Of a stretch of DNA of 64,000 nucleotides, positions 3,001-48,779 are shown piece after piece. How positions within the stretch are numbered: position 1 is the first letter of the stretch; each line of letters begins with the position of its first letter. Made by a program: the position numbers and the translations under genes. The stretch comes from Trypanosoma brucei (lineage: Eukaryota): contig CM000207.1 of assembly GCA_000002445.1 (NCBI GenBank), positions 160,001 through 224,000 on the forward strand. The letters are read 5' to 3'. Below the pieces are notes generated by a model. That model worked only from the letters and a program-made list of their open reading frames with translations, searched no databases and was not told where the DNA came from.

Positions 3001-5310
3001 ATTTCCCTGCAATTTAAATTTATGATTTTACTAAGACCCTCCTCCTTAACCCATTTTCATCTTCCCCCAACGTTTTTCGATCTAGAACAGAAGTAGAGCT
3101 TATTTTTTCTTTGAACACTTCACGTGATACGATTTTCTCAGTACAACTGAGGTTAAGTTCCTTTTGATTAATAAAAGGATTCGCAAAGCCATTGATTTTT
3201 CTTCTTTTTTCTTTGCGCTCGTTCTTTTTACAACGCTATTTTAGGCCCCTTTATACACTTGAAAACATTGACTTATATTTCCTGTTTTGAAATTATTCGC
3301 ATTAACACTGTTTGTTAATTATTTCTGTATTGGAGCTATTCATCCATCGCATTGGATGCCGCTATGGAACTTAACAAACAAGTCCTTTGGTAATAACTGC
3401 TGGAAGGTAGCTACGTATTTTTCACCAGTCTTTGTACTTGACGCTTGTTGCTCAGTTGAACGATTTTAAGTGCATATATTGGTTTCGTAGTAATTTGTGG
3501 TAGAAACATATGAAACGAAGCGCCGCAGAGAATCATCATACGTCCGCCACGCCACGGACCGTTACAGCCTCCTGTGGTGCTTTCTGCGGACTCTCACACA
3601 TCTACAAAGTCTGTTTCCATCCCCACTGCATCGCTTTGACCTGTTCCCGAACTCACTCCCTGTGGCGACGGCCGCGCCACGCGCCCACTGTTGTGACCTG
3701 CTACTTTCACTCCCGAAACCGCATTTCCTCTTTTTCCACCTTCTCAGCGGACGTTTTTCACGCTTTCTTGCTTTGCAACTCCCAATTCTTGCCCTTCTTG
3801 ACTCACTTTATGTTCTCTGTAGTCAGCTTCTGAGGGTGCCGACTCCAAGACTGGGGAGCCTTCAGATACCCGGTCGATCGGATCTTCGCTCCAGCTTCCG
3901 CCCGCAGCATCACTTGATTGTGCGCTCACTGTAGGAACGGTTTCATCAGAGTCGGGTACCAACCGGCAAATTCTCTCTGAGGTTGAACTCGATTCAACAC
4001 TCAGCCGTTTTTGTTGCGTTGGAGTGCTAACCGTGGCTGCACCTGGTGTGAGGCCGTTACGAGCTGAGGTAGCTACAGGGGACCGCTGGTTCACACCGTT
4101 CTGGCGGGTTGCGCCAGTGCCCTAAGGCCAGCAGTGGTGCTTATTGAAAGATTCCAAGTACCCCTCGCATTTCTAGCTTTTGCTTGTTGCTTGCATTGAA
4201 GCTTCCGACTCGCCGCGTGGCACAAGCAATCTTAGCGTCAAAAATGAGATTGTTGTATGTGTGAACATTATTCTCCCTCGAGGTTTCTGACGAACAAATT
4301 ATACAAAACACTACCAGGAATAAGGAGACCAATACATGTAAGAATGCCACGTGGTAAACAACTATAATTAGATTTAGAATTAGAGTATATACGAATAAAT
4401 ACACGATACTCCATCCGATTACTTCCTGTGGAAAAAAAAAGCGTCTGAAACGCCACGATGGTCCCTTCCATCGACTTCAGCGCCTTTTAACTTAATTTTT
4501 GATGTATCACTCCAGCGCCTCCCTCACCTACAGTCCTTTTGATCGCCCCTCAGCTTCCTTGCACACGATTCCCTATTTTCCATATTCTCAAGAACTCAGG
4601 GCAACAAAAAAAATCAGACAATATGTCTTTTAATGGCTTCACTTTCCTACCAATTTAAATGAAAAAACATACACCTAGTTCTTTCAATATTTTTTTAAAT
4701 AAAGAATTTATCGGAGTTCACTAGTCTTTTTGTTACCACTTCCTTCATCACCTGTAGGTGACTTTGTCGCCAAACCAACACATTTGAACTTGACCGTAGC
4801 TTCAATGCTTTCCTGTATACATAACTATATTTTTGCTCTCCATTCTTAAATGCTGCAACCAAGCTTCCAAAGAAAGGTCACGCTGTTTCTGCTTCTTATG
4901 TTTGAATGGGCCCAATTGTAAGCCTCGTAAGATTCACTTCCTGTGTACATTTATAACGCGGTTCTTTTAATATATCTTGTCCTTCCAGATTCCATAATTC
5001 CATAACAACAATATTAAAATCTGTATTCGTTCAATCCCAAAAGTTATAAAGTTTATTCACCATTTGCTTTTGTTTTCCTTACTGTCGCTTTTACTTTTCC
5101 TAACTTTTGTTGTTACTGATAGGTGTGAGCGGATTATTTTATTCTTTTGAGCATTGTATTTTTCCATTTTATGCAACTTTTTAAATGGGTGTAAAAAAGA
5201 AAAATCATTCCTTCCTTTCCTTTACTCTGTTCGCTGGTCTTCTGCGCTGGTGTTTGGCGTATTTTCCTTATTAAGGGTTAAAAATAAAAATAATTGAATG
5301 ATGAATAAAT

Positions 5311-6327
5311 TTATGCAAACAGCCAAAATAAAAATATCCGTAGAAACTGTAAAATAATTTTGGCGGAACTCTTTTGTTCTTCTGGTGGTCTTGCCGTAGT
5401 GGCACCTGTTTCAGTGCTGGTAGTTGTTTGCGCATTTGGGTTTCCATCTTTTTGTGGTCCTTCTGTCCCCTTAGCTGGTGAGTTATCCCCTGTGCTTGGA
5501 ACTGTGTTTGGCTTTGGATATTTTTCCATGCTTGGCTTCCCGTCCGCACGTGGTTTTGTGCTTCCACTTGTACTTTCATCCTTGCTCATTTCTTCAACTT
5601 CTCTCACCAGATCTTCGAGCTTACTAAGCCATTCAATACCACTTGCGTTGTCCTCGTTAGATCCCCTTGGGTACAGCACACAAATGCCGTCGTTCTCTGA
5701 TTCCGCTCCATTGCAAGTATGCAGTCCGTACTCTTTACCTCCCCCGTAGGTATAGAGGTGTTCGCGTCCATCTGAGTTCTTACGTTTCTTTATGCGCATC
5801 CTGAATTGAACCTTATTCTCGTGAAATTCAGTTTCTGATGGCACACCTTTTCCACTTCCAGTTATGCATCTACTCCTCAAGTCGTCCCATGTGCTTCGGT
5901 GCTTTTGGATGGTTGGCCATTCCTGGGAGTTAACTTTTCTTACATTTCCCGTGTAACAAAGGTCCCTAAGATTTGGTTGCTGACCTGTTCCTTCGCACAA
6001 ACAAATAATATCTTTTACAAGAGACCTTCCTGCCGACGCAGGGATACCCCCACTGTCTTGTCCGTAATCCTGTTCTCTGTACCATTTCCATTTCATTCTA
6101 TTCAGATCATCAACTCCTGATTCAAACAATATATCTTTAACCCTTTTTTGCACAGAGGCCACGTCTGCTTTTGATTTTCCCTTCATTGTTTCAAGTGAAT
6201 CGCTTATTCGTCCAACGAAACTAACAAATTCACATAATATTTTAAATTCATCCTCATTAAGTATACCTTGCTCCGCGCCGGACACATAGGTCAATATTAA
6301 AGTCACACCAAGAACTAATCCCAGCAA
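5311..6327 (-). CDS. VSG-related surface protein (type-B-like N-terminal motif), 338 aa, signal peptide plus S/T/P-rich stalk plus C-terminal hydrophobic (GPI-like) tail
   Basis: ORF with an N-terminal hydrophobic leader MLGLVLGVTLILTYVSG. Its NEDEFKILCEFVSFVG motif matches the NxxEHAALCxF N-terminal motif of the + strand type-B VSGs in this window (28040, 52549, 57427). A DIICLCEG motif resembles the VSG-B LCLC motif. The C-terminus is hydrophobic (IILQFLRIFLFWLFA). The protein is much shorter than a full VSG (about 480-530 aa). Confidence 0.45.
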   Translation of the reverse strand: MLGLVLGVTLILTYVSGAEQGILNEDEFKILCEFVSFVGRISDSLETMKGKSKADVASVQKRVKDILFESGVDDLNRMKWKWYREQDYGQDSGGIPASAGRSLVKDIICLCEGTGQQPNLRDLCYTGNVRKVNSQEWPTIQKHRSTWDDLRSRCITGSGKGVPSETEFHENKVQFRMRIKKRKNSDGREHLYTYGGGKEYGLHTCNGAESENDGICVLYPRGSNEDNASGIEWLSKLEDLVREVEEMSKDESTSGSTKPRADGKPSMEKYPKPNTVPSTGDNSPAKGTEGPQKDGNPNAQTTTSTETGATTARPPEEQKSSAKIILQFLRIFLFWLFA

Positions 6328-6339
6328 CTTCTTTCACAT

Positions 6340-6420
6340 CTTCACCACGCCACCTTCAACTACCTTCCTGAAGGGAAAAGACAAACAATAGAAAGAAAAA
6401 GCCATATATCTACAACTTCA
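6340..6420 (-). promoter_or_regulatory. polypyrimidine tract (minus strand), candidate trans-splice acceptor region for the 5311-6327 gene
   Basis: On the + strand this stretch is purine-rich (gaagggaaaagacaaacaatagaaagaaaaag). That makes it pyrimidine-rich on the coding strand immediately upstream of the ATG. Confidence 0.3.
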
Positions 6421-7296: not shown

Positions 7297-7857
7297 TTAT
7301 CCCTGTGTGACTAACCGAAAGTGCTTGTCGTCGCCACCAGTGCTACACTTGGTAGTTTTTTTTCCGTAACATCGGGCCCCTGCGCATGAAGTTAACTCTC
7401 CCAACAATTCTGTTAAGAAGCTACAGCGTATGCGTTGTAGTGAACATGCCATTGTATTCCTCTCATTTCCTGGGAGAGTTGAACATGTCGTTGTTCCGCA
7501 GCTTCGTATTCCATTGCCTGTCTTTTCACCGGTATCACACATTCCTTTAACGTTGTTGACGTATCTTGGGGGCACCGTACTGCCGTGTATCAGCTCCTGC
7601 TGTATCGCTAGGAATTCTTCTGACCTCGATGTGAAACCACCGCCCCTGTATTTCACTGCGCAACTGCGTGTAGTTGTGCCGGCATCTGCACCTATTTTTC
7701 CGTTAGTGCCGCATTGTTGTGCTTCGCATTGAACCAACATACCCATTTGACTTTGTTGCGCTGTGAGCACAAGCAACGATTCAGAGCAGTGTTTTGGTCC
7801 ACTATGTATTACGGGGCCTACCCTTTTTCGCACAAAGTAAATGTACAAATTATACAT
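7297..7857 (-). CDS. cysteine-rich ORF of unknown identity (possible degenerate surface-protein fragment)
   Basis: 186-aa ORF with about 17 Cys, Gly/Thr-rich, on the same strand as and adjacent to the VSG-related gene. I recognise no motif. Confidence 0.12.
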   Translation of the reverse strand: MYNLYIYFVRKRVGPVIHSGPKHCSESLLVLTAQQSQMGMLVQCEAQQCGTNGKIGADAGTTTRSCAVKYRGGGFTSRSEEFLAIQQELIHGSTVPPRYVNNVKGMCDTGEKTGNGIRSCGTTTCSTLPGNERNTMACSLQRIRCSFLTELLGELTSCAGARCYGKKTTKCSTGGDDKHFRLVTQG

Positions 7858-10800
7858 TTATTTGAGTCTTCTGCATGATTATCAGTAGCATCAATTTCAT
7901 AAGAAAGATTCACAGATTTGACTAGCGTGTGCCACCAGTATAATCTGAAGTAATTCCACAAGCAATTTTAGGCGCAATGCCGCACATCGTACAAATTGAT
8001 GATTCTGCAAAGATATCACTGATTTCTCTTCTTCTCCGTCTCTCTGTGTTCACCTCCTCGTGTGGTCCATAGTGGCATTTAGCAGTATCATATGTATCTC
8101 TCTTCTAATTTGTGCACGGTCAACTGATATTATTATATGTATAGCATTTTGGAGAGTCGCTCAGGCAGTAGTTTAGGTGCCACCACCAGTTGTGTTCCGG
8201 ATTTCATATTACTAGGTGATTTGTTACTGTAAATACCATGAATCAGCTGAGAGTTCCAGACACAATACGACACGCTCTACCTTGCATCCTTGCTGTGACT
8301 CTTGCTCTTTTCTTTTCGCCTCATAGAACCACATCTCAATTTTGCATATGACAGTGTGAGGTACAAGCACAAAGTGGTATGCTTGAAGTGGATTTTTGCT
8401 TGTCGCCCACTAATGTTGGTAGCTCACTGAGGGATGTGGTAGTCATGCGCTTGCAACATTTCCCACGTCCATTATGTGTCGTCGGAATCCCTTCCACAGT
8501 AACACGATAACAGGGAATACCTCAAGGTTCCTATCCTCTCCTCCATTCGGTTGCCACCAAACCCTAAAATCAGGAATATCCTTGAGGAAGTATCCCATTC
8601 AGAATGCGTCCTTTATTATCTCCATAATAAGTTGTATTCGCTTTTGTAGTGAGACCTGTTTATGGATAAAATTTCCAGAAGCGCCTAGTTGTTGTTGTTG
8701 TTTTCGCTCCGTCGTGGAACAGTGCGAAGTTGTACGGTGGCACCTGCGAAAGCGATCAGTTATTCGTGTCCGCTGGTTCGTTGATGATTGTGTCGCCACA
8801 GAAACCTTACAATTTCATACTATCTCTCTTTATCCCGATTGCTACAAACCACTCTCTTCTGACTGTCATTCAGATAAACTCGGCGCAACACATCACTTTT
8901 TTTTGTGTACAAAATCGCGCTTCGACAACATTTTTGTCCACCATATGTGTTACGGGATCATCGCGTATTTGATACCCAGCATTATTCCCACTTGCAAAGT
9001 CGCGAATGGTCTTCTGGTATTAGCTCAACTGGCCCTTACAACTTTCCCTTTCATACTGTTTCACGTTGTCAATGGCTTTCCGTTCCATCCACATAACTGT
9101 CATCACAGCTGCTAATGAGCAACGTGCAAAGAAACCTATGTACCTTTGATGTTAGGCTGCACAAAATCAATTCTATGTTGTCTGTGGCAAAAGATATTAA
9201 TGCATCGCAGTATATTTCCTCAATCGAGCTTGATGTTTCCCCTACGTTCCTCTGGGATTAGCCACGCACGGTTTTTCACCCTTTATATCTTTTGGAAAGA
9301 TGTGGATTGGGAAAATAATTCGCAAGCTTATGCATCACCACCCCTCCCTGGATTTCCTCCATATGCCTAGGATACTATCCAGAATTCCGTGGTGGATTTT
9401 GCTGTTGCTATTCTGTATGGAATGTGTTCTTCCTTAGGAGATAATCCGCACCTGATATTTTTGACCTCAAAACATCGACAACTGTCATAAACCTTCACGC
9501 TACGCTCTGTTTGTACCTTTCTCTGGTCGCACAATCACCAAGCCTGATAACATCAGTTTCATCCGTTGCGGGATGCTTTAGTCATTTCAGCCTCAGCATC
9601 CTTCAAGAGACGCTTCACTTCCACACATAGCAACTTGTATCTCAGAAGTTTCTGTAATGCTACCAACTTCGCCGTGGCTGAATTATCCTCAGTAAAAGCT
9701 AACATCCTTAAGTATTCACCAACTAGGTCATCAGGGTACAGAATCACATTTCGCATTACACTACGCCAATATGGCCCCCTTTCAGGGAATATATATACAG
9801 GGCAGCACTGTATAAAATGCAGGTGAGAGTCGAGAGCCCGTACACAAATGTCCCACAAAATGTATTCACCACACTCCTTCTACTCCCTTAATATTTAGAA
9901 GTCCCAAATGTTCATATTTTTCTGCAGCTGCTGAGGTCATGCCGTACATCCTACCACACAGATATTTCACACCTCTGTGCACAGAATGAAGTTTTCTAGG
10001 AATTTCCAACCACCGTTATTAACTTACTTCATGTGTAAAATAATAATAATAATAGAAACCAGACAGAACAAAAAGTAAGATCCTATTTGTCAACGGTAAC
10101 TTCATTGACAAACCCAACTCCTCAACGGGAAACCGAGAACAGGAAGCCACAAAGCATATGGCGCATATGATTTTCACCTCTCAGTTAAAATGAGGTGGAT
10201 TGCATGACTTACACACCTTCTAAGAGCACACCCTCCGAGTGACCCGATTATAAGAAAAGAGACACTATGACGGTTGAAAACAGTTTTTCATAAACCTTCA
10301 CTCCATCCGTGAGGATAAATGCGCAAACAATGATAACGATGGCAATACTAGTGAAAACAATGATGGAGCATTAGGATCATGGGGAAAAACATGTACTTTT
10401 ACATTAAGGAACCTTAATAAATAAAAAAAAAATACAAATGTTCCCTACACAGAGGTATAGGGGGTGTTCGCCAACTTCGCAACACTGGTCAAAAAGTATT
10501 TAAATGTATCGACCATTAGTGCAGTCAGTTGAATAAGAAGTAACATGTAATATATAAAAATATATACAAAACCTACAGACTCGAATGTCTCATCGTTATT
10601 CGCCCACTGAAAGTGATGTTAATTTCATGTTGAACAAAATGATGGAGACCGATACCGCAAATGCACCTCGTCCAAAACATATAACGCATACCAGTTGAAT
10701 GGAAGATACAATTTGTGTGCCCACATAATCTGCTTCATGCCATCACGTCAACACAACCAGGTGTCCGAATACTCCACAAATGTCTTCACCATTTGCAAAA

Positions 10801-13800
10801 CTTAGCATTGCTTCACATTGGCTTACACATAGCAGCATCCACCAAACAACTAGTGCAAGCAACATGTGATGGTCGGAACACTATGCACTGCAACTGCGAG
10901 AGGCCTTCATTTTTAGAAGCAAACATAAATTCAGTGAATCAGATTGGTAACATTGTCCGACGGATTCGATTGTGAGCTGCACCGGGTTGGAAAGCAACCA
11001 AAACAGATATCAGAATACCAGCGGTGGTGCATTCCGGTTTCGATGACAATTACAGGCGAAACAATCTCTACATTTCACCTCATGGGCGACAAACCGCAGC
11101 AAAAAAGCAAACCAAACACACGGCAATGTGCACATAAACAATTTACCAAAAGAACAGATAGGACGGCGAGTACTTGCTCTCAATGGCACATCACTAATCA
11201 GTTACCTTTGGGGTAGGTTGAGTACGTGTCAAACGATAAACACGCGTTGGCGCTAGTGAGAATAAGAATATCTTTTCATTGCATCAAAATATAAATCGTA
11301 ACCGCATTCGCCTCCGTTTGAAATTTAAAAAAGAGAGTTTAAAAAAACATTCACGCCAAGGTGTATGCTACTAATCATCATTTTTAAGCTTAACCGCGAA
11401 GTGCCAACATATATAGAAGGCAACTCGCCATAAACTTGCAACCCACTGCCTCAATAACGGCACCAAAACTTACTTGGTGGGATTAAACCTGCAAGAGCGG
11501 GCAAATTTTTGGGGTTGAACATAAGAACACAGAAACGCATAAGGGTTAATTGAAATATCACCCAACTTGTGATAACTCAACACAGAATGGGCGTAAAGAT
11601 TGACTTCTAAAGTTAAGAAAGATTACGTAATTCAAAATAGAAAATCATAAAATGATTCACGACGCAGCCCGCGCATGTGCACAACACAATGGACCACCAC
11701 AATATATTCACCTCAGCCAGAGCCCACCTCTGTGCCATATCAAAAGTGTTCCATACAGCAAAAAAAAAAAGAAAAACATAATGTCAACCGCGTCTGTGTG
11801 GCTTGCCTATCTCCCACATTATGCATGTCAGATTGCTTTTACATGCATAAAGAAGGGTAAGAGTTGGCATTACGTTTTTTTTCAAACTGTTGTCCCCTAC
11901 TCTGATTTTGTTTTTCACGTTGATTCAAAACCTCATGAAGGCTAAGATTTCCACTTGATACAGAACCCCGGTATTACAAGGTCGTATGAAAAACGACCAA
12001 GCAAACAAACGCGTCTCGCCCTTGATGTTCACTGTAAATCAGTGTGATGGAAGTTTTACAAAGTTTGGGCCGCCTGTTGGAGTTGTGAAATTGTTATGAC
12101 GCTCAAAGGAGGCGTGACCGACGGCGAGGAGGTCATCGATGCGGTAGAGCTAAACGACATTTACTACCGGCTCCCAGAGAGCTCACCCTCAACTCTCTGT
12201 CAAACTGATGTACAGATCATATGGATCATAGAACAGATTCGGATGCCTTCATGATAAAAATTGCGTGCACCGTTATACGACGGCGCCCATAGCTGTTCAA
12301 ATCACTTCGACGGTACTTTCTTTCCTTGAAATAATCAGACATAGAGAGGTGGGTGCTATTTCTTTTGCCTTTTTGAGGTAGCTTTTCTCTGCTCCGCGGA
12401 AGTGTGGTAAGCGAATAAATGTATTCCTACTTCACGAGCACACATACGCACCACAGTGTTCATACCACTACTGTTGGTTGGTCGTATAAGCCCTATTTTT
12501 TAACCATGCGGTCACAAACCCATCACAGTTATGCGATGTGAAGATTTCATGTATTTGAGGTTTGGGGTTTCTAATACTCCCTGTATATGCAGTATCTTTC
12601 TGTAATCATAAATATGAATATCCGCATGCTGATTTTCATCACGCAAACAGTTATATGCAACATTCCTGTGTTCAAATAACCTTGTGCCGAGGCGATACGA
12701 TTAACACGTACCACTATGCACACATCTCCAATCGCCCATGAGCAGGTGCAAGAAAAGAAATTTAGAGCATTAAGATAGTTAAAGATAACTTGCTCTCATT
12801 GCTTCCAAATCCTTCCCGGAGAAGGAATTGTGGTACGGAAACGTACAGATCTGACAAGTAGTACTCATCTGAGCAACAGAATCCTACCTGGTATTGCAAC
12901 TGTGGGGGTCATCGCAACTATAAGCCAAAACAACACACCGGAAATTCAGTGAAACAACAACCTATACAGTTTCCAAAACAACGGGTTCCATACATCGCAA
13001 GAGGCAAACTGTTGGCACACAACCACCTTCACATGGGTACTTATAACTTCAAACAACGCACCTGAATACCGCACTGCATCACCAATGTCTAGTTTTTAGT
13101 GCAGCAAAAACCAAGAGAATTTGCGTGCCATGTGCCTGTCAGTTTGCAGTGAAATGTCGAAGCCCGATTTTTCCGCGAAGCTTATGCACGTGCAAGCCTT
13201 AACCCGCGTCTGGTGCCTGTCAAAACTTTCGAATCTTAGCTAGGATGTCAAGAAAAAAACATTCGCCGCTCCTTCTCGACTTCAGGCGATGCCTCAGGTA
13301 AATAGACATCACCAGTCGTCAACGCGCTCCGCCGCAACAATGCAACTCTCTTTCCTCCCGAAGTAGAAGCGGATGGAGTTTAAGGAAAATACGCCTCCCG
13401 TCCGATATGGCCAAGAACCAGTTAACGCTCTAAAATGAATGTTTGCAGAGTGTCGACGCTCGTTTGGCACAGCACGGGGCCGTCGGAGACCCGAAAGTAA
13501 CGGAAACTTTGAAAGGCACGACTGCCACACTTGCGCCCGCAAGCGGCAACCGACCCTCAGTGACCTCTGGATGCTTTGGACAACCCCTGACGCAAGCACA
13601 GAAGCGTTGGGGGCGAGTGGATGAGAACAAGGGCCCATTGGCCGTTAGAATAAATGCGTACTCACACTAACGTAACCAGGGCTTCTGCGTACCTGAGAGT
13701 TAAGGTTGAAAGCCTGGCATCGCACTTGTAGCTTGAGGGTGGCTTTGCAGTTTCCATTGATAGGGTCCCAACCTGGCATATTAACTGAAAGTCCGTACCC

Positions 13801-14734
13801 TCTCCCACGCCACTACCGGCTTAAAAGGACGCGACGCTACCAACTCGAGAGCAGCGAAGACCTCCAACAGCATTCAAAAGACGGACAGCCTTCGGTGCGG
13901 CAGTACGAAGCAACATGGAAGGCTCCGCGCACTGTGAGTTCCGTGTTGCACGATCTTTCGGGGGAAAGGGAGTGGAACGGCTAAGTTTTCGGAAGCAGTG
14001 TGCTACGAAGCCTCGTCAGCATTTTTTTTTTTTTTGAAGAAGGAATCGATAAAGGAAGCGGACGAACCCAAGGGTGCCACTACACTTGCCGTTCGTGACG
14101 AGGATGTCCAAAAGGCTGCTGAAAACAAAGGCATCGCACTGCCTGCAAAAACAGAGGGCTGATCGCGACTGAAAATAGACACCGATGAAAACTTTGTAAA
14201 AAGGACGAGCGGTAGGGATTTCTTGAGATAGTTCGGCGAATGTAAACAGAGAAACCTAGGGTGCCGCTTGCTTTCTCTAGAGAAAAAAAAAAAACTTCCC
14301 TTCGAAGTTAGTTGCCGCACCGCGTCTATCGCCACCCTCGACTCGGGCTGCGCATGGGCGGACTCATGTCGAAGCACCTGCGGATTCGACACTTAAGGGA
14401 TATGTAGAGAAAGGGATCCAAAACACACGGACGGGCCAGGCAGTGAACATTCCAGGAGCCGACGGCTGACCATTTTAACCGTTTGCACACCCTGAGTTAG
14501 CAGAAGTGGTTTGGGGAGCTTCCCGCCAACTGATGGGGGTGAGGCTTGGTTGTGAAAGCGGAAGGAGCTAAGCAAGATTGCTATGCGAAAGCTGACTTAT
14601 CTTCGTAATCGATGAACTTCGTCTAGAGAAGACTGCTGAAAAATGCTTTCACTGAAGGAAAACTGCTTTTTCATTCCCTAGAGAAATCGACTAATAATGT
14701 CGAGTTGTATTAACTTGTCGCTGTGTCCGTTGGA

Positions 14735-16590: not shown

Positions 16591-17406
16591 ATGCTTAAAA
16601 TTGCAGCAGTCATTTTGTTGACGCTGAGGACGTGTACGCCCAGTGTCGTCTTCACACGACAACCAGACGTGCAGGTCACATATGGAGACGAAGGGCCGAG
16701 AGAGTACTTCGCTCCCACAGCAGAACAGTTGGCACGGGGAAAGATAACTCCAAAACACAAAACTCAGCCGATGGTGGGACCTTTGACCCATGGTAGTATA
16801 CCCGATGAAAGGAGCGAAGGAGGTGAAAGTGAGAAAAAAAGTAGTGAAAAAGTCAGCCCTAAGGCAAGCGATGTTGAGAACGAGGATGGTACAGTGGTTG
16901 AAGTATTACACCAACCAGAGGCGAGTGGGGCACCTGTTGTTGCAGGTGAGGAAAGCACATATATAGCAGCACAAAAGTCAAAAAGAACAAAAAAACAATA
17001 GGGCGAGGACGATGAGGGTAAAGGAGGGAAGAACAAAGAAGATATTTCAGGAATGCAAGCAAAAAATCGTAACTACAGCCATGATGCACATCCTGCACCA
17101 CGAGGTGCAGTCTCGGTGGTTGACCAAGGAAGCACACAAGGGGCGAAAACCGTGAGCAAACGATCAGTCGATGAGGGAGGAAAGGAGATTTCGCAGCAGC
17201 AAGTGTCGGGGCAGTATGAAAGCTACGTAGCGTTGCCACTGCGAAATGGAATGTCCGAACATGAAGTGAGTAGACCTTCAGAAGTGGCCTTGGACGATGT
17301 GGGTGAACCCTCGTCCTTAAGTGAAAGTGTACCGAGGAGAAACGGTGCGAGTCGCAAAAGGTGTGCGATATTACTCTCCACAGGATTAAGTGTGGTGTTC
17401 TCCTGA
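16591..17406 (+). pseudogene. hypothetical secreted or surface acidic Ser/Glu-rich protein, split by a stop into two ORFs (16591-17001, 17053-17406)
   Basis: The first ORF starts with a signal-peptide-like MLKIAAVILLTLRTCTPSVVF. The second ends with the hydrophobic AILLSTGLSVVFS. The two are co-linear and separated by about 50 bp. Composition is low-complexity and acidic. Confidence 0.25.
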
Positions 17407-26002: not shown

Positions 26003-26054
<52 letters not shown>

Positions 26055-26828: not shown

Positions 26829-27881
26829 TTGTTATGGGGATTAATGTACTTTTGTCTCTATACAGCTTGTTTGGTGAGGGTGACCCTATTTCATTTGAAA
26901 TTACTGAAGATGAGTATAAGATTTGTTTCGCAGGATGTGAGGAGGATATGGGAAATTGAAGATTATTTGGTTGTGGCTGGAATACCTTCAATAGATAATG
27001 ACGAAAGATTTAGAAGGAAAAACTTGCAGAGACAAACGTGTTGGAGTTATCCTGAAGTTGCGAGGAAGTCAAATAATTTTACTGGAAAATTGCTTATAAT
27101 TTATGCACTTTCCGCACATACAAATAACAATTGTGAGCTAAAAGAAATTGTTGAAGAGGAGGCAGAGTTAAATCAGGATGTTATTATTTTACCTGTTTGT
27201 GATGTAAATCCAACAACAAGTAAGAAAGTTGGAGAGGCGGGTAATTGGGGATGGGAACCGGAGATCACGATGAGTAGAAAAACATATTTGTGGTTCAAGT
27301 TCGCAGTTGAAATATTTAAACCAACTAATCCCTATATAATGAAAGCAGATGATGACATATTTATGAGGGTGCCATTGTATCTGAAATATCTGTATGGGCT
27401 TCCAAGAGAGAAATTGAATGTGGCAAGAGCGGTTGGTGAACTTGACGAGTCTATTGCTAAACTGACGTGGTATGTTGTTGGCTACGCAAATACAATTTCG
27501 AGAGGTGTCGTCAAAGAAATAGTTGGCTTTTCGCAAATTTCCAAACTATTAACCAGCAGAATCAGCTTTAGAAACTTTGACAAATATATTGAATATGCTG
27601 CCTTGAATGAGGATATTATGGTGGGGGAGGTGATAAGGCACAAAATGAAACTTGAAGGTTTGCTGACAGTGGGTATGCAGGATTGTCATTATGTGATGCA
27701 TGTGAAAAGACCACTAGATAGATTTGTAAAAGAAAATCCTAAACTTATTGTTTTTCACCACATTGCAGAGGAGGAATATAAGTGGCTAATGACGAATCCA
27801 CAAACAACGATTGAACGAAATGCAGAGCCGCTATTGAGGACGCAGCAAATAGTTCCATTCTGGCATGAAGCTAGCTGTTAA
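26829..27881 (+). CDS. putative UDP-sugar-dependent glycosyltransferase (trypanosome GT67-like), type II membrane topology
   Basis: 350-aa intact ORF. It has an N-terminal hydrophobic anchor (LMYFCLYTACLVRVTLF), a DxD-type motif (KADDDIF) and a GWEPE region typical of the kinetoplastid beta-1,3-GlcNAc/Gal transferase family. A polypyrimidine tract (ttccttcttttctttttaatggtttct, about 26700-26730) lies upstream. Confidence 0.6.
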   Translation: MLWGLMYFCLYTACLVRVTLFHLKLLKMSIRFVSQDVRRIWEIEDYLVVAGIPSIDNDERFRRKNLQRQTCWSYPEVARKSNNFTGKLLIIYALSAHTNNNCELKEIVEEEAELNQDVIILPVCDVNPTTSKKVGEAGNWGWEPEITMSRKTYLWFKFAVEIFKPTNPYIMKADDDIFMRVPLYLKYLYGLPREKLNVARAVGELDESIAKLTWYVVGYANTISRGVVKEIVGFSQISKLLTSRISFRNFDKYIEYAALNEDIMVGEVIRHKMKLEGLLTVGMQDCHYVMHVKRPLDRFVKENPKLIVFHHIAEEEYKWLMTNPQTTIERNAEPLLRTQQIVPFWHEASC

Positions 27882-31201: not shown

Positions 31202-32816
31202 ATGACACCGGCGCAGCTGACCCTTTTCTTTCTGCTAGCTGGAGGCGGGTTGCAATCGACGGAAGCGACAGCTCTCGGCGACAACGAAAACACGCCGTAT
31301 TTCAACACACTTTGCAGCATCATCAAAGTAGCAACAACGCCATTGCCAGAGCTCGAAGCCACAGAAGACGTAGCAGAAATCGCAGCACTGGCGCAACTCG
31401 TCAACCTTACGGCAGTAAACCCGGAGGCACTGAAACAAATAGCCGACAAAGCAAAAGCGAAGGACAAAATCAAAGAGGAAGGAACGCCAGCGAACACCTA
31501 CTGCAAAGAAGGCAAAACGACCGTCTGCGAAAAGTTAGCGGAGTTACTTGCAAGCAGTAACGGAGCCAACCTCGAAGCAATAATAAACCAACGACTGTCA
31601 CAGGCGACGCCCGGGCAGCATCTGCTGGAACTCAGCGCAGCGATATCAGCTAAAGTTGCCGAGGCTCAACGACAAGATCCATCGGCCCAAATGAACCTCG
31701 CACGACAAGCACTAAACAACGCACTAGAAGGCAAAGACTCAGGGGACGCGACCGCTGCGGAGCTAACAACGGCAGGCAACCGAGAAGACCAGTGTGGGAA
31801 GCCGCAATCCGGCAGCGAAGCAGCAGGCACGACGGCCGGGGCTTCGCTCGCAAAAGACAGTCTTTGCATGTGTGCTACGACGTCAACAGCCAACAGCCAA
31901 ACCGCATGCGGAACAGACATTCAAGCGAACGGCGCCGCCCAGCTAACCTGGGGAACCGCGTCGACTCAGCACAAACAGTGGGAAAATCTGAAGAACCACT
32001 GTAAGCAAACAACAGGACAGACAAAGCTATCGCCAAACAGGCTACGGACAGCCGCTGAAACTTATCTAGCCGCCCTAACCATCGGGGCGCTTACAACAAA
32101 GGCGATACCAGGCACGATAGGCTACACCGAAAATTCGCCAACGGTCTGCAACGGCGAGAAAGGGAGCACGAACGGCGCCTGCGTTTTCTACGGCAAAGCC
32201 CAAGGCAGGGCCCTCGAAAACAAAATACTATGGAGGCAGAAACTACTCTCAGCAGCAGGGCACATCGAGGCCGCAATAAAAACGAAGCAGACCCAGCTTC
32301 ACATAATTAGCCAGATAAAAGCATTAAACGTCACCCTAACAGCACTCACAATAGCGCCACAAGCAGCCCACAATACGGCAGCCACAGGGGCTAGCGCATC
32401 CACAGAATCCCGAAAGGAAAAAACAATGGAGGAAAAGAAGAAAGAATACGAGCAACACAAAGACAACAAAACCTACTGCGAAAATGCAGGAAAATGCAAA
32501 TGGGAAGGCAAAACTGACGCAGATGGCCTCTGCGTAGTAGACGAAAGTAAAGTTAAAACCCAGAAAAATGCAGCACCAGGAACAGGAGATGGAGCTACAG
32601 GGGCAGCAGCTGAAACTTGATGCGCACAGCATTTCAACGACAAAGAAAAATGTGAGAAAATGAATGAAGGGAAAATCAACCCCCGTTTGTGGCTGGAGAA
32701 AAGGTAAAGATAATGAAGATGACAAGGGTACAGAGAAGTGTCGAAATGGTAGTTTTCTATTCAATAAGAAATTGGCTCTGATGGCTGTTGATTTTGTGAG
32801 TTCATTGGCATTCTAG
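31202..32816 (+). pseudogene. VSG: VSG (type-A-like N-terminal domain), 472-aa ORF, then an in-frame stop and a C-terminal frameshift
   Basis: Signal peptide MTPAQLTLFFLLAGGGLQSTEA. C-terminal domain YCENAGKCKWEGKTDADGLCVVDE. After a TGA at 32618 the C-terminus (KCEKMNEGKSTPVCGWRKGKDNEDDKGTEKCRNGSFLFNKKLALMAVDFVSSLAF) continues with a +1 shift near 32660. Confidence 0.85.
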
Positions 32817-42473: not shown

Positions 42474-42743
42474 TACTTTTTCTCCAATTTAAGAATTTTA
42501 TAATATTTGAAAAATTTTTGTATAATTTAAAATCTTTTAACATTTTTCGATGAAATTGTGCAAAGTATTTAATGATTAAAAGTTTTTAAAAATTAAAGAA
42601 CAGAAAAATTGTGAAAACAGTGTATGGTGGCGGTTTAACAGTTTAAAGTATTGTATTGTAGGCTACAAAAAATGACTAATATTATGAAGTTTCTTTATTT
42701 TGCATATTTTGTGAATATTAGTTAGTATTATAATAAGAGCAGA

Positions 42744-43171
<428 letters not shown>

Positions 43172-43209
43172 TAATAATAATGATAATTATGATAGGATAG
43201 TGTTGTGAG

Positions 43210-43309
43210 NNNNNNNNNNNNNNNNNNNNNNNNNNNNNNNNNNNNNNNNNNNNNNNNNNNNNNNNNNNNNNNNNNNNNNNNNNNNNNNNNNNNNNNNNNN
43301 NNNNNNNNN
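43210..43309. other. assembly gap (100 N)
   Basis: Run of n characters. True size unknown. Confidence 0.99.
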
Positions 43310-43524
43310 TGACAGCCCTCAGGCACGACCAACAATAAAGAGGAGGAAAATGGTAACAAAGCAGATGCATCAGCAGACAAAACAGGAGATAAGTCAGACG
43401 GGAATTAAAAAGATGAGGTTTGCACAGGCACTGAAGAAAAAGATTGTGACACGAAAAAGTGTGATTGGAATAAGTAAAAGAAAGAGTGTAAAGTTAAATG
43501 GGGGCAGAAGTTACCTCTTATGTG
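43310..43524 (+). pseudogene. VSG: VSG C-terminal fragment (CDWNK motif plus GPI-signal remnant)
   Basis: ...GTEEKDCDTKKCDWNK... then agtgtaaagttaaatggggg...tcttatgtg. This aligns with the VSG 3' end at 42330-42420 (CNWNKEKSE...tttcttatgtgattgagg). The ingi begins immediately after. Confidence 0.6.
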
Positions 43525-46500
43525 CCCTGGCGATGCCGGCCACCTCAACGTGGTTCCAGGGTCCAGTACCCCGTATCATCGGGGGAAGCCAAGAGCCAGC
43601 AGCGTTCCTTTCATGGGGAACACTGCTTTGCTCCGGCTACAGCATCATACAGCACAAGGATCAGCAGCGTCTTGCTGGGACACCGTTTTTCATTTGTCGG
43701 TCCCTGGGCACGCGCCAGCGTACCATCAGCAGTATCATCCGCACTAAGATGCTGCTGTCCGGTGATGTGGAAGAGAATCCCGGCCCGTCGTTGCGCGGGA
43801 TGCAGTGGAACTGCGCCGGGCTATCTCAAGGAAAGAGATTAGCACTCCACAAAACCCTTGTTGATGAGCGGATCGCCTTTTGTCTGTTGAGCGAGACAAG
43901 GATGACGCCTGGAGAGGCGGCTTGCTTTAGCGTTGCTGGCTACCAACATCACGAAATAGCTCGTAACTGCAAAGGAGGTGGTGTATCAATACTAGTGAGG
44001 GAGGACCTACCAGTCGAGACCGGTATGGCCGTTGTTGGTCGCATTGAACAAGTGCATGCAACAATTCACCTTGCACGTGGAACGGCGCTGACTGTCACGT
44101 CGGCATACATCCCACCAAAACACACCTTCACGGCAACTGACCTAGATACGCTTCTGACGACTGACGGTGCCCAGCTCTCATCGGTGCAGACGCTAACGCA
44201 CACGCGTTGGCATGGGATCGCGCGAACCCACCAAATACCAAGGGTGAAACCCTCACACAGTGGTGCATTGACAACCAGTTTCTGGTCTGCAACACTGGTG
44301 AGTGCGCCATTTACACACGCCACCACGGGGAGTCCACCCCTGATGTGACACTGTCAAGGAATTGTACAGTGTACACGTGGACATCGCTGTATTCTCCCGA
44401 TAGCGATCACCATCACATATTTTTCGACGTTATCGTTGTAGACGACACAGATGCACTGAGTTGCCCGCGGCTTCGAAAGCCCATGTACGCATGGCTAAAA
44501 GCTAACTGGAGGAATTTCCGTCTCAAGGTTGACGAGCTCTGCAGGAAAATTGGTAGAGAGAAGAACGTCAACACCCTGGAACAGAAATTGAGCTCCGCCA
44601 TCCGCATTGCAACGAAGGTCTCCGTCCCCCGTGGCTGCAGAGTAACGCCACCACATTGGACACCTGAGCTCGCGAAACTCGATGAAGAGATCGCTGGATG
44701 CGGACCCTCCCACCGAAGGGAAAAGTTGGTAACCACGCGTAAGCAGATCCTGGACCGTACCACAAAGAAGAGATGGAGCACGCTATGCTCCAGACTTGCG
44801 GTGTCAGACCGCTGCAGTTGCCACATTGTCAAGAAGGTATATGCGCCACGACCACTAACCACACCGGCTGTACTTGTTGATAACGCGGCCATCACGGACT
44901 ACCGTCAAGCTGAGAGGTTCATTAAACTGTACTCGTCCCGCGCAAGAAGGCACCCCGACTCACACCCACCGGCACCAATAAAGACGATAGCGAGTGAGTT
45001 CAGTCTCATCACGATGGCTGAACTACGGAGATCGATCAAACTGCTACCGAGTGGATCCGCAGCCGGACCTGATTGCTTATACAACGAGGCACTGAACATC
45101 TCGGTAGAACAGCGCTGAATGTTGTTCTGAAGCTATTCTATGAAAACATACGAACGGGAGTCGTGCCGTCTGCATGGAAGATCGGTGTTATCATCCCCAT
45201 CCTGAATGCCGGAAAAAAGGCGGAGGACCTCGATTCTTACAGGCCTGTAACGCCCACGAGCTGTCTCTGCAAAGTCATGGAGCGCATAATTGCCGCGAGG
45301 CTTAGAGACACTGTTGAGTCCCAGCTGACGACGCAGCAATCAGGCTTTTGCCACGGATGCTCAACGCTCGAACAACTCCTGCACATCCGCGCTGCCCTCT
45401 GCCGTCCCACGCACCAATATCGTACGGGTGCTGTATTCGTTGACTACGAGAAGGCATTCGATACAGTAGACCACGACAAAATTGCGAGGAAAATGCACAG
45501 AATGAAGGTATCACCCCACATTGTGAAGTGGTGCGTATCATTTCTGAGTAACCGAACTGGCAGAGTGAGATTCAAGGAGAAGATTTCCAGCAGCAGAACA
45601 TTTGAGCGAGGAGTCCCACAAGGAGCTGTCCTTGGCCCAATCATGTTCATTATTGTCATGAACTCGTTGAGCCAGCGCCTTGCAGAAGTGCCGTTGCTGC
45701 AGCACGGATTCTTTGCAGACGACCTGACGCTACTTGCGAGGCACACAGAGAGGGATGTCATCAACCACACACTACAATGCGGTCTAAACGTGGTGTTACA
45801 GTGGTCAAAAGAGTACTTCATATCTGTCAACGTAGCGAAAACAAAGTGCACACTCTTCGGGTGTACAGAGCGCTATCACCTTACATTACAACTGGACGGC
45901 GAAAGAATAGGAGCTGACAGGACACCGAAGCTTCTAGGAGTAACATTCCAGTGTCTGCAGGGGATGGCAACACATGCGGCCGAAACGAGACGCAAGATGG
46001 ACTTCAGACTACTGCAGATAGCAGCCATCTCAGCTTCTACATGGGGGCCAAGACGACAAGTGTTGAGAGCTTTTCATCTGGAACTCGTACAGGCACACAC
46101 CATGTATGGCATTGAGGTATGGTACTGGGACGCTTCGAAACGAAATCGCGACCTCCTTGCATCAGCACAACACAAAGCCAGTCGCATCATAGCTGGCATA
46201 CCGCATGGGACGCGCAAAGAGGACTCTCTGCTGGAAGCAAACCTCCTGCCACTCAAGACGACCACTCTTGTGCGCAGCATGAAATTCATGCTGATGTGTG
46301 AGTCACGAGGCGGATGTTTGCGGCGCAGTGCTGAAGAAGTATACCACAGCAAACACCCAGTCAGAGTCTTACATTCCCGCATCATGCTGTCCTACCCCCA
46401 CCTCCGCATTGAGCCACGCGAGCAACCACTAGAGACATCGACGCTCCGCCACAGCTGCCGACCGCTATTTCACACGCAGATAAAGCCTGTGTGCGCTGAT

Positions 46501-48779
46501 GACCCTGACGATGTCAAAAGCGAGGCTTCCGAAAAGTGGATTGCACGGCATTTTGCACGGAGGGGGAAGGAGCCACAGCGGCGAGAGCACTACGAATTGT
46601 GGACTGATGGATGCGTGTCCCTCGGTGAGAAGTCCGGAGCAACTGCCCTGCTCTATAGAAACAACACGCTGATTTGCGCACCCAAAACTGGAGCAGGGGA
46701 ACTCTCATGCAGTTACAGAGCGGAATGCGTAGCATTAGAGATAGGACTGCAACGGCTGCTGAAATGGCTTCCGGCATACAGAAGCACACAGAGCAGGTTG
46801 TCCATCTTCTCTGACTCGCTGTCAATGTTAACAGCACTGCAGACAGGCCCCCTAGCCGTAACGGACCCAATTCTAAGACGACTATGGAGGCTTCTGCTTC
46901 AAGTTCAGAGAAGGAAGATACGTATCCGACTGCAATTTGTGTTTGGCCATTGTGGCGTGAAACGGAATGAGGTTTGTGATGAAATGGCCAAAAAGGCCGC
47001 AGATTTACCACAGTTGCGAGACACATGGATCCCCGACATCATTGCTTATGCGAAGCGAGTGCTTAGGTCGGAAGAAGTCCATGAGAACACTCATAGGTTT
47101 GGTATCACGGGCAACCACTTTACAACAAAACATAAGGAAGAACTGACGAGGGAAGAAGAAACGGCATTGGCACGCTTTCGGGTTGGGTCTTCAAGACACT
47201 ATGGATGGATGTTGCGAAAGATCAACCCGAGTGTGCCTCCACAGTGCCGATGGTGCAACCAGAAACATGCACCGATAGGACCAACAATACAAAAGGCCCC
47301 ACCTGTTGCGACACGCACTCTTCAGAGAACCTCCGAACCGACAAAATGTACGGAATGTGATGCCGCATACCAATGCCGCTCGAGTTCTGTAACGCACATG
47401 GTAAACAAACATGGCTTTGTGCGAGCTGATGCCCTCCGGAGGATCAAATACGGCGATGCAACACCCGCAGTGGATATCCCCCCGGAGCCCCCTCCAGTGG
47501 TGGCGATCGTTCCTCTACCATCGAACACACGAGTCCCGATGAGACCGCAGTTGCTTCATTGTACCATCTGTGCCTCCAAATTCGCAGTGCCAGGCCGACT
47601 ATTACACCACCTTAGAACAATACATGGCATAGGCAGCGGTAGTTGCCGCGTGAAAAGGGGGCGAGAGAACGAGGACTCATTGCAAGGAGATGGTAGAGCC
47701 CCAGCAGCGCCAGCCTCTCAGGATACACGGAAGCTGCCGTTTCAATGTGACCTGTGTGAGGCGAGTTTCGGTACACACTCTTCCCTGTCACTACACAAGA
47801 AATTCAAACATAAGAGCATAGTGACGGAGGACGGTACCGTGGTGGTGGTGCAATTCCCTCGTAAGCGTGCCCGTGAGGGAAACGTTGACGTGCCGGGGAA
47901 AGGCGAGGTGCAGTGTGGTGTGTGCCAAAAAGTGCTCAGTTGCAGGGACTCCCTCATCCGACACTGTAAGGCTTTCCACAAAGGTGAGGGTGTCGAGCTT
48001 AAATGCAGCAAAAGCAAAAAATTTTGTGCCACTGATTCCCCGCATACAAATGCATCCATGTTGGTGTGCCCGACATGCGGAAGGCAGTGTGCTAGCAAAA
48101 CTGGCCTCACCCTACATCAAAAGAAGATGCACGGTATGAAGGTAGAGCGCGCTGTTACCAGCCAACGCGGCGACTGTGAAGAAACGTCGCTGCACTCGAT
48201 GAGCTGTCCCGGTTTGAAGGAGTTACGTGTCAGGTTTGCGGTGGAAGGTGAGTGTGTGCAGGATATATGCTTCTCCAAAAGGCTGGCGCAGTTTCTCATT
48301 GCGGTTGAACGGAGCCGGCCGCAGGTGAAGTCCTCACCTAAGGTAACAGTCATACAACCCACTCTCCCTTCTGCAACTTCCCCCCTTATTGCCGAGTGTG
48401 GAGCTAGCAGGAAAAGCACCGGATGCAGGAATAGTCCAGACACCCTCAGAGACAGAGGGGGTATGCAGTCAACAAGCAACAAAAACATAAAAAGGGGGAG
48501 AGAATAATAAACGAATAACAAAAATCAAAACAAAAGGATTGCTAATTGACATCTTTGGGAGAGTCCGGAGTGGGGGGCTTCTCGCCCCATCTGCTGTATT
48601 CCGTTCAACTGCGGAGCTACAACAAAAATTATAGAGGGAGTGTTAGGATGAATAAAAAAGGGAGACTCTGCCACAGTCGCCAGATCGATAGCATCTCAGG
48701 GCTCTACGGTGATGGTTGATGGCCGCGCCAGTGGGGGGAAACTCTCACGAAGGCACGAAGAAAATTCCAAAAAAAAAAT
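43525..48779 (+). mobile_element. ingi non-LTR retrotransposon, about 5.25 kb, degenerate (ORF split over three frames), A10 tail
   Basis: The 5' end CCCTGGCGATGCCGGCCACCTCAACGTGG... is the RIME/ingi terminus. A 2A-like peptide SGDVEENPGP sits at 43758-43787. There is an AP-endonuclease-like region (MQWNCAGLS...CLLSETR). RT motifs are present (AVFVDYEKAFDTVDHD, GVPQGAVLGP, FFADDLTL). An RNaseH-like region is present (LWTDGCVS...AECVALE). Four C2H2 fingers are present (CTICASKF..HHLRTIHG, CDLCEASF..HKKFKHK, CGVCQKVL..RHCKAFHKG, CPTCGRQC..HQKKMHG). ORF segments are 43350-44348, 44207-45118 and 45073-48507. The poly(A) tail is at 48769-48779. Confidence 0.9.
45073..48507 (+). pseudogene. ingi ORF fragment: reverse transcriptase, RNaseH, C2H2 zinc-finger region (1144 aa, frame-disrupted relative to the EN region)
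   Basis: RT motif series and zinc fingers as above. The upstream EN part is in two other frames, so the element cannot encode the single roughly 1650-aa ingi polyprotein. Confidence 0.85.

What the first reader, a model, noticed from the sequence alone, without database searches (positions are those of the whole stretch)
5311..6327. Short minus-strand VSG-related gene with a type-B N-terminal motif and an S/T/P-rich stalk
The ORF shares the NxxEFxxLCxF and ICLC signatures with the type-B VSGs in the window, but it is only 338 aa. About 60 residues of low-complexity T/S/P/G-rich sequence (PKPNTVPSTGDNSPAKGTEGPQKDGNPNAQTTTSTETGATTARPP) lie before the hydrophobic tail. This looks more like an O-glycosylated stalk than a VSG C-terminal domain. 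It is on the opposite strand from the array, has no 70-bp repeat, and has its own polypyrimidine tract. It is a candidate invariant VSG-related or ESAG2-like surface protein and not part of the switching archive.
Basis: partly seen in the sequence, partly recalled or inferred. Interest (0 to 1): 0.5.

Follow-up and report, generated by a model that had tools for sequence, protein, structure and literature searches.

The report
Disabled VSG-related (VR) gene copy
This is a copy of a known Trypanosoma brucei family of small VSG-like surface proteins (the VSG-related, or VR, genes), but a stop codon right after its start codon means it probably makes no protein, so the finding is ordinary.

Summary

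Two corrections:
- **The start codon.** The "338 aa" comes from a TTG start that the bacterial-code ORF finder chose. The family's ATG is at 6339-6337 and is followed at once by TGA, where every homologue has Trp (MWKK; TGG in a T. b. gambiense paralogue).
- **Two conserved residues are lost.** Gly73 is Glu and Cys92 is Tyr.

The window is T. b. brucei TREU927 chromosome 9. The flanking ORFs are annotated proteins there, but this ORF is not in the protein collection. It is therefore most likely a recently disabled VR pseudogene. ESAG2 is not supported. The family and genome are already known, so interest is low.

The parts
5311..6339 (-). Whole VR (VSG-related) coding region: 342 codons plus TAA, collinear from residue 1 to the end with family members
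   Evidence: tblastn of P0001, P0002 and others aligns residues 1-342 to 6339-5314. Protein alignment A1. Translation.
6334..6339 (-). ATG start codon (6339-6337) followed at once by an in-frame TGA (6336-6334). All homologues have Trp here (MWKK).
   Evidence: Sequence. All 18 homologues in alignment A1 have MW or MC at this point. The T. b. gambiense paralogue reads AATGTGGAAG where the window reads GATGTGAAAG.
6274..6339 (-). Signal-peptide-like N-terminus, M*KKLLGLVLGVTLILTYVSGA (KK, a hydrophobic core, then SGA before EQ). The stop codon separates it from the initiator Met.
   Evidence: Hydropathy 1.6 over the first 19 residues. Conserved in the family. Read by inspection only; no predictor was run.
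5566..6270 (-). Compact class-B VSG N-terminal-domain fold, about 235 residues against about 350 in canonical VSGs
5959..6123 (-). Divergent patch, residues 73-127, inside an otherwise near-identical match to Lister 427 'VSG 1903' (P0003). Probably a segmental gene-conversion tract.
   Evidence: Identity to P0003 is 68/70, 31/55 and 121/127 in residues 3-72, 73-127 and 128-254; Fisher p = 4e-12. No aligned family member exceeds 60% identity across 40-residue windows inside the patch.
6121..6123 (-). GAA (Glu73) where 25 of 25 close family members and 23 of 24 remote relatives have Gly
   Evidence: Count of deviations at conserved columns. Sequence.
6064..6066 (-). TAC (Tyr92) where 25 of 25 close family members and 22 of 24 remote relatives (other VR clades, T. 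congolense VSGs) have Cys. This leaves 7 cysteines instead of 8.
   Evidence: Cys positions.
5641..5649 (-). The only N-glycosylation sequon (N231-A-S), in the conserved DNASGIEW motif
   Evidence: Regex scan. Conservation in alignment A1.
5365..5562 (-). Cysteine-free T/P/S/K/G-rich linker ('stalk'), predicted disordered, ending in the family-invariant RPPEEQKS
   Evidence: Composition. pLDDT 29-37. Invariant columns R315-S322 in the numbering of alignment A1.
5314..5364 (-). 17-residue hydrophobic C-terminal tail, AKIILQFLRIFLFWLFA, after KSS: a candidate GPI-addition signal
   Evidence: Hydropathy 1.67. Conserved in the family. That VSG GPI signals are 17 or 23 residues long is my own knowledge; no GPI predictor was available.
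6368..6402 (-). Polypyrimidine tract (6402-6370; 28 of 31 pyrimidines counted over 6400-6370) and AG (6369-6368), a candidate trans-splice acceptor 28 nt upstream of the ATG
   Evidence: Sequence. The 5' flank is 84% identical to the T. b. gambiense chr5 paralogue, including the tract and the AG.

Best explanation
The ORF is a copy of the roughly 342-aa subfamily of T. brucei VSG-related (VR) genes and lies on chromosome 9 of strain TREU927.

Family members encode, in order:
- a signal peptide;
- a shortened class-B VSG N-terminal domain of about 235 residues with 8 conserved cysteines and one N-glycan sequon;
- a disordered T/P/S/K/G-rich linker of about 65 residues in place of the VSG C-terminal domain;
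- a 17-residue hydrophobic tail of the kind replaced by a GPI anchor.

Intact members are therefore expected to be small GPI-anchored proteins sitting low within the VSG coat. They are not moved into expression sites, because they lack 70-bp repeats. This architecture is inferred from sequence. VR proteins as a group have been reported on the bloodstream-form surface.

This particular copy is most likely a recently inactivated pseudogene. Its ATG is followed at once by TGA (Trp2 to stop, TGG>TGA). The next in-frame ATG (Met52) would give a protein with no signal peptide. Two structural residues that are otherwise invariant are also lost (Gly73Glu, Cys92Tyr). The rest of the frame is still open, so the disablement is young. 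The copy is a mosaic of family segments, which suggests that VR paralogues, pseudogenes included, exchange sequence by segmental gene conversion.
For: **Family membership**
- 24 homologues with E from 1e-66 to 3e-178, all from T. brucei subspecies, 340-345 aa when full length, collinear from Met1 to the last residue.

**Fold**
- Pfam VSG_B 5.9e-28.
- AlphaFold2 pLDDT 80-96 for the head and about 33 for the linker.
- Canonical VSGs align with an offset of about 100 residues, whereas other VR clades and T. congolense VSGs are collinear end to end.

**Pseudogene status**
- ATG TGA at 6339-6334. All aligned homologues have MW or MC there, and the gambiense paralogue has TGG in an 84%-identical flank.
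- Gly73Glu and Cys92Tyr are the only changes at invariant columns not shared with the closest relative, P0003.
- The exact sequences of the flanking ORFs 7297-7857 and 16591-17001 are TREU927 proteins (Tb09.142.0350 and EAN76234). The VR ORF read from its first in-frame ATG is not in the collection, nor did an exact look-up find it among called genes.

**Context**
- 70-bp-repeat motifs occur only on the + strand at 29934-63126.
- VR followed by ESAG1, as in T. b. gambiense chr5.

**Literature**
- VR genes lack 70-bp repeats (PMC2771046, PMC2567434).
- VR proteins are enriched in the bloodstream-form surface proteome (PMC4587319).
Against: - Only one mutation is outright disabling, and the remaining 340 codons are open. 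A base-call error or a strain or haplotype polymorphism at one nucleotide (TGA against TGG) would restore the gene. I could not inspect reads or the reference annotation.
- Absence from the protein collection is indirect. P0001 and P0008, which are real TREU927 proteins, were also missed by the gene-position index.
- Gly73Glu and Cys92Tyr both lie in the divergent patch and could come from an unsampled donor. Three of 48 remote-relative residues at the two columns also differ from Gly or Cys.
- The signal peptide and GPI signal were judged by eye, not with predictors.
- The function of the VR family is unknown.
Confidence: 0.8

Rival explanations
1. This is a functional VR gene. The TGA at codon 2 is a sequencing or assembly error, or an allele-specific polymorphism, and the locus makes a normal GPI-anchored VR surface protein.
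For: 340 codons remain open after the stop. The 5' flank, with its polypyrimidine tract and AG, is conserved, and blastn similarity (70%) extends about 1.1 kb past the stop. Residues 128-342 are 88-97% identical to intact members P0001 and P0004.
Against: Besides the stop there are two independent changes at invariant structural positions, Gly73Glu and Cys92Tyr. The ORF is missing from the protein collection although both neighbouring TREU927 ORFs are present. I expect a clone-based Sanger reference to be accurate at single bases, though this rests on my own knowledge.
Confidence: 0.13
2. It is an ESAG2-like or ISG-like invariant surface protein, not a VR gene.
For: ESAG2 is described as a VSG-related GPI-anchored protein (PMC11298655). 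The ORF lacks a VSG C-terminal domain and has a linker plus a hydrophobic tail, a superficially similar layout.
Confidence: 0.02
3. It is a degenerate canonical VSG (archive) pseudogene that lost part of its N-terminal domain and its C-terminal domain by deletion.
For: It lies in a subtelomeric region with VSG arrays nearby. It carries a VSG_B domain.
Against: The short architecture is shared end to end by more than 25 intact paralogues and by T. congolense VSGs, so it is ancestral to the family and not a local deletion. There is no 70-bp repeat. It lies on the strand opposite the array.
Confidence: 0.02

Closest known systems
T. brucei VSG-related (VR) genes, ~342-aa subfamily (e.g. P0001 and P0008 'VSG-related, putative' of TREU927; Lister 427 'VSG 1903' P0003; the 'VSG, atypical' protein P0021, which may be the VR gene reported in expression site BES11)
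   Same: Collinear over the full length at 40-87% identity. It has the same signal peptide, NxxEFxxLC and CLC motifs, cysteine pattern, NAS sequon, T/P/S-rich linker ending RPPEEQKS, and 17-residue hydrophobic tail. There is no 70-bp repeat. VR is followed by ESAG1, as at the T. b. gambiense chr5 locus.
   Different: It has TGA instead of Trp at codon 2, Glu for the invariant Gly73, and Tyr for the invariant Cys92. Residues 73-127 form a patch that no aligned family member matches above 60% identity in windows inside it.
Canonical class-B VSGs (mVSG1954 8b3w, VSG11 8ok4, VSG3 6elc, VSG615 8ok8)
   Different: About 100-130 fewer residues in the N-terminal domain. In the model the first two helices are 23 and 16 residues long. 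No cysteine-containing C-terminal domain, no 70-bp repeat, only 14-18% identity.
T. congolense VSGs (e.g. P0104, P0105, P0125, 341-374 aa)
   Same: Similar length, collinear end to end with the VR profile, and the cysteines are shared. Jackson et al. 2013 (PMC3605285) already note that VR genes resemble canonical T. congolense VSGs in structure.
   Different: Only about 15-20% identity. They come from a different species, where they are the variant antigens themselves.
Fam1 (Tb927.6.1310), a T. brucei-specific b-VSG-derived family whose section heading in PMC3605285 places it in the flagellar pocket
   Same: [quoted passage not shown]
   Different: [quoted passage not shown] No Fam1 sequence was available here, so the relationship was not tested.

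Membership tests
VR (VSG-related) genes of T. brucei, ~342-aa subfamily | Full-length, collinear sequence homology to proteins annotated as VSG-related | tested here: met
   24 hits with E from 1e-66 to 3e-178; 79% identity to TREU927 'VSG-related, putative' P0001; alignment runs from Met1 to the C-terminus.
VR (VSG-related) genes of T. brucei, ~342-aa subfamily | Type-B VSG N-terminal domain | tested here: met
VR (VSG-related) genes of T. brucei, ~342-aa subfamily | No 70-bp repeats in the upstream flank | tested here: met
   Two 70-bp-repeat motifs (up to 3 mismatches) and the AAT runs are found only on the + strand, at 26003 or beyond. None lies in 1-26000 or on the - strand.
VR (VSG-related) genes of T. 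brucei, ~342-aa subfamily | Typical location outside the VSG arrays, at chromosome-internal strand-switch regions (as stated in PMC2771046) | tested here: inconclusive
   The gene is on the strand opposite the array. An ESAG9-like gene points the other way about 10 kb away, and GC skew flips at about 13-14 kb. The locus nevertheless lies in a region with ESAG1, ESAG9-like and VSG genes that the array paper's supplement labels sub-telomeric.
VR (VSG-related) genes of T. brucei, ~342-aa subfamily | Intact reading frame from ATG, with signal peptide and GPI signal (needed for a functional member) | tested here: not met
   TGA at codon 2. The signal-peptide and GPI-signal sequences are present but uncoupled from the start codon. 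It is therefore a family member by descent and probably a pseudogene.
Canonical VSG (switching archive) | Cysteine-containing VSG C-terminal domain | tested here: not met
   No Trypan_glycop_C hit, whereas two window VSGs give one. The last cysteine is residue 220 of 342.
Canonical VSG (switching archive) | Upstream 70-bp repeat used for gene conversion into expression sites | tested here: not met
Canonical VSG (switching archive) | N-terminal domain of about 350 residues | tested here: not met
   The folded head is about 235 residues. Canonical VSGs align with an offset of about 100 residues.
ESAG2 | Closest relatives are ESAG2 proteins | tested here: not met
   No ESAG2 name among the 29 family hits or the 20 next-tier representatives whose names were looked up. 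No ESAG2 sequence was aligned directly.
ISG65/ISG75 | ISG fold, and a type-I transmembrane helix with a cytoplasmic tail | tested here: not met
Fam1 (Tb927.6.1310) | Membership of the chromosome 6 tandem array clade | not tested
   No Fam1 sequence was retrieved. The description comes only from PMC3605285.
GPI-anchored protein | Omega site followed by a hydrophobic C-terminal propeptide that a GPI predictor recognises | not testable with these tools
   Inspection only: KSS followed by the 17-residue tail AKIILQFLRIFLFWLFA.

The most novel reading that the evidence does not exclude
The VR family may not be a set of fixed 'invariant' genes. It may diversify by the same segmental (mosaic) gene conversion that builds new VSGs, with pseudogene copies such as this one acting as donors or recipients. 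This copy is 97% identical to Lister 427 VSG-1903 over residues 3-72 and 95% over residues 128-254, but carries a 55-residue patch (56% identical) that matches no aligned family member. It is also 97% identical to a TREU927 paralogue only from residue 128 onward.
Probability: 0.3. Interest if true: 0.35.

Novelty: already known. Interest (0 to 1): 0.12.

Why it matters
It matters little beyond correct annotation. The VR family has been described and catalogued in this very genome (36 VR sequences are cited in PMC2854126), and VR proteins have been reported on the bloodstream-form surface (PMC4587319).

Three points are useful:
- **A scanning caveat.** ORF calls made with bacterial start codons hide a nonsense codon next to the true ATG. 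This "gene" should not be counted as an expressed invariant antigen or vaccine target.
- **A family model.** The predicted structure shows the family as a minimised class-B VSG head on a disordered tether.
- **A hint of recombination.** The mosaic pattern suggests that VR paralogues recombine with one another.

Tried and rejected
- **Exact look-ups for genomic context.** Look-ups of P0001, P0008, the window VSG and the Met52-start version of the ORF found nothing in the gene-position index. Only the T. b. gambiense paralogue P0016 gave a locus. No nucleotide sequence of the closest relatives was therefore available, and I did not attempt dN/dS.
- **First AlphaFold2 run.** With 19 close sequences it was too poor to use (pLDDT 48.5). 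A 50-sequence alignment with remote relatives fixed this.
- **AFDB Foldseek library.** It was not installed.
- **Key papers.** Marcello & Barry 2007 and Jackson et al. 2012 are not held, so statements about them are second-hand from papers that cite them.
- **Spurious profile hits.** P0039 and P0061 matched profile positions 139-214 in 13 and 15 stretches. They carry Ig-like and PKD-like domains, and P0039 also a secretion-system sorting domain. I took them to be bacterial repeat proteins and rejected the matches as spurious.
- **Neighbouring ORFs.** Pfam on neighbouring ORFs and on the gambiense locus genes gave nothing informative.
- **Six-frame Pfam scan of 17-27 kb.** I prepared it but did not run it, because it bears little on the finding.
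- **The VR locus identifier.** Searches of the array paper's supplements for Tb09.142.0330.0340 and .0360 found none.
- **Conservation by region.** Mean pairwise identity is about 50% in every part of the protein, so I make no claim that the linker is specially conserved.

Full report
**1. The observation**

The ORF finder, which uses the bacterial code, lists a 338-aa ORF at 5311-6327 on the minus strand starting at TTG.

- NEDEFKILCEF and ICLC occur in the ORF.
- A stretch of about 70 residues is rich in T (16%), P (14%), S (12%), K (11%) and G (10%) and has no cysteine. A 17-residue hydrophobic tail, AKIILQFLRIFLFWLFA, follows it.
- Pfam finds VSG_B (5.9e-28) but no VSG C-terminal domain, whereas two canonical VSG ORFs in the window give both.
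- The two 70-bp-repeat motifs I searched for give 7 and 9 matches, all on the + strand between 29934 and 63126. The AAT runs are all at 26003 or beyond.
- A 31-nt tract with 28 pyrimidines, followed by AG at 6369-6368, lies 28 nt upstream of the ATG (read).

The start codon does not hold. TTG is not an initiation codon I would accept in a trypanosome. Four codons upstream the sequence reads ATG TGA AAG AAG TTG (6339-6325). All 18 full-length homologues I aligned begin MWKK or a near variant. tblastn aligns their residue 1 to 6339. A nucleotide alignment with a T. b. gambiense paralogue, whose 5' flank is 84% identical, shows AATGTGGAAG where the window has GATGTGAAAG. The gene is therefore 342 codons long with TGG>TGA at codon 2. 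The next in-frame ATG is Met52 in 342-residue numbering, beyond the signal peptide.

**2. What it is**

A search of the 5.8-billion-protein collection returns 24 hits, all from T. brucei subspecies. The full-length ones are 340-345 aa, and several are named "variant surface glycoprotein (VSG)-related, putative". A profile search adds five more of the same kind.

An exhaustive HMMER search of 1.8 billion cluster representatives shows what comes next.
- Other VR clades of T. brucei, for example Tb09.v1.0300 and copies on the contigs that hold Tb927.3.2500 and the chromosome 1, 2 and 11 VR proteins.
- T. congolense VSGs of 341-374 aa, which align collinearly end to end.
- Canonical 440-530-aa VSGs, which align only with an offset of about 100 residues.

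None of the 49 named relatives is ESAG2.

**3. Source of the window**

Two window ORFs are exact TREU927 proteins.
- 7297-7857(-) is Tb09.142.0350.
- 16591-17001(+) is EAN76234.

The supplement of the 2009 array paper places Tb09.142.0370 at chr9:176,591 and Tb09.142.0380 at 177,053. These match window ORF starts at 16591 and 17053, so the window is chr9 at about 160,001-224,000.

ESAG1 (Tb09.142.0310, chr9:157,848) lies about 6-7 kb downstream of the VR. The T. b. gambiense chr5 locus has the same VR-then-ESAG1 order. That locus matches the window at 86% upstream of the gene and at 70% through the gene and about 1.1 kb beyond it.

The VR ORF read from its first in-frame ATG is not in the protein collection. 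This is consistent with it being treated as a pseudogene in the reference, but I could not read the annotation.

**4. Structure**

With 19 close sequences AlphaFold2 gave a poor model (pLDDT 48.5). With 50 sequences, including remote VR clades and T. congolense VSGs (alignment A3), it gave pLDDT 80-96 for residues 22-256 and about 30-37 for residues 258-323.

- Foldseek against the PDB returns only class-B VSG N-terminal domains among its 26 matches with E <= 0.001, and rank 27 (E 0.02) is also one.
- A profile search of PDB sequences agrees. Family positions 92-251 align to residues 176-333 of mVSG1954, and the N-terminal NxxEFxxLC helix aligns to residues 8-28.

The family head is thus a class-B VSG N-terminal domain that lacks about 100-130 residues. 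In the model the first two helices are 23 and 16 residues long. The "stalk" is a disordered tether, not a folded C-terminal domain. Whether it is O-glycosylated cannot be judged from sequence.

**5. State of this copy**

Apart from the nonsense codon, the window copy departs from the consensus at 4 of 51 columns that are at least 95% conserved in the close family.

- Two of these (Phe for Leu, Val for Leu) are shared with its closest relative, Lister 427 "VSG 1903" (P0003).
- The other two are unique. Glu73 (GAA) replaces Gly, which is present in 25 of 25 close and 23 of 24 remote relatives. Tyr92 (TAC) replaces Cys, which is present in 25 of 25 close and 22 of 24 remote relatives. This leaves seven cysteines.
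- The nonsense change is G>A against the gambiense TGG. The two missense codons (GAA, TAC) would also be single G>A changes from a Gly GGA or Cys TGC codon, but I did not see those ancestral codons.
- The close relatives P0001, P0002 and P0004 have no such deviations.

I conclude with about 0.8 confidence that this is a recently disabled pseudogene. The main rival, at about 0.13, is a single-base error or polymorphism at codon 2.

**6. Mosaic structure**

Against P0003, identity is 68/70 in residues 3-72, 31/55 in residues 73-127 and 121/127 in residues 128-254 (Fisher p = 4e-12). Against the TREU927 paralogue P0001, it is 37/70, 30/55, 123/127 and 77/88 in the four segments, the last being residues 255-342. 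In 40-residue windows inside the patch no aligned family member exceeds 60% identity.

This pattern points to segmental exchange among VR paralogues. Both unique missense changes lie inside the patch, so they may have arrived with it from an unsampled donor, possibly a pseudogene. This is inference.

**7. How it works**

For intact family members the sequence implies the following. All steps are inferred except that VR proteins as a group were found enriched in a bloodstream-form surface proteome (PMC4587319).
- Entry into the ER through the signal peptide.
- Four disulfides and one N-glycan in a squat VSG-like head.
- A flexible tether.
- GPI anchoring through a 17-residue signal.

The family's ligand or role is unknown.

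For this copy, the conserved polypyrimidine tract and AG suggest it could still be trans-spliced within its transcription unit. Translation would end after Met1, so I expect no protein.

**8. Comparison and novelty**

The VR family, its lack of 70-bp repeats, its resemblance to T. congolense VSGs and its restriction to T. brucei are already published (PMC2771046, PMC2567434, PMC3605285, PMC2854126). The genome is the curated reference. The finding is therefore already known. The only additions are the corrected gene model (nonsense at codon 2), the structural model of the family, and the mosaic pattern.

Noticed in passing
window 16591-17406 (+): An ESAG9-like gene, 90-92% identical over 271 aa to T. 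equiperdum and TREU927 proteins that UniRef names ESAG9. An in-frame TAG at 16999-17001 interrupts it where the homologues have His or Gln. The reference annotates the two halves as separate proteins: EAN76234 and EAN76235, which by their array-paper coordinates are Tb09.142.0370 and .0380. Both are reported as stumpy-enriched 'ESAG9-like' transcripts (PMC2771046). This is a second gene near the VR broken by a single nonsense codon.
   Followed up: partly
window 7297-7857 (-): This ORF is the annotated hypothetical protein Tb09.142.0350. In the 86%-identical T. b. gambiense chr5 region its homologue splits into two tblastn segments that meet at one base (8497-8661 and 8661-9008), i.e. a frameshift. 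It may not be a real coding gene.
   Followed up: partly
window 5271-5579 (-), alternative frame inside the VR gene: This 102-aa alternative-frame ORF matches the C-terminal 76 residues of Lister 427 'VSG 1595' (P0024, 67% identity). That deposited protein is therefore a frameshifted VR family member.
   Followed up: partly
window 45073-48507 (+): A 1144-aa ORF with reverse transcriptase, RNase H and C2H2 zinc-finger domains. It is a non-LTR retrotransposon, ingi-like by my own knowledge, inside the VSG array. GC content rises to 0.50-0.53 there.
   Followed up: no
window 42744-43187: A perfect (AAT)148 triplet run (99% matches). It lies next to a 70-bp-repeat motif at 42725-42744 and generates spurious ORFs on both strands (42663-43380).
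   Followed up: no
window 31202-32620 (+): A 472-aa type-B VSG ORF (VSG_B 1.4e-43) that ends ...GATGAAAET with no hydrophobic GPI-signal tail, so it is probably an atypical or pseudogene VSG. Its exact sequence is not in the protein collection.
   Followed up: no
window 26829-27881 (+): A 350-aa ORF with a TTG start and a weak partial galactosyltransferase match (Pfam Galactosyl_T 1.9e-06, 41 of 195 profile positions). It sits just upstream of the first VSG ORFs of the + strand array and is probably a glycosyltransferase pseudogene fragment.
   Followed up: no
window 12000-14000: GC skew changes sign here, negative to the left and positive to the right. The minus-strand VR and Tb09.142.0350 lie on one side and the plus-strand ESAG9-like gene on the other. 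This fits a divergent strand-switch region, and no ORF of 130 aa or more lies in 9-14.7 kb.
   Followed up: no
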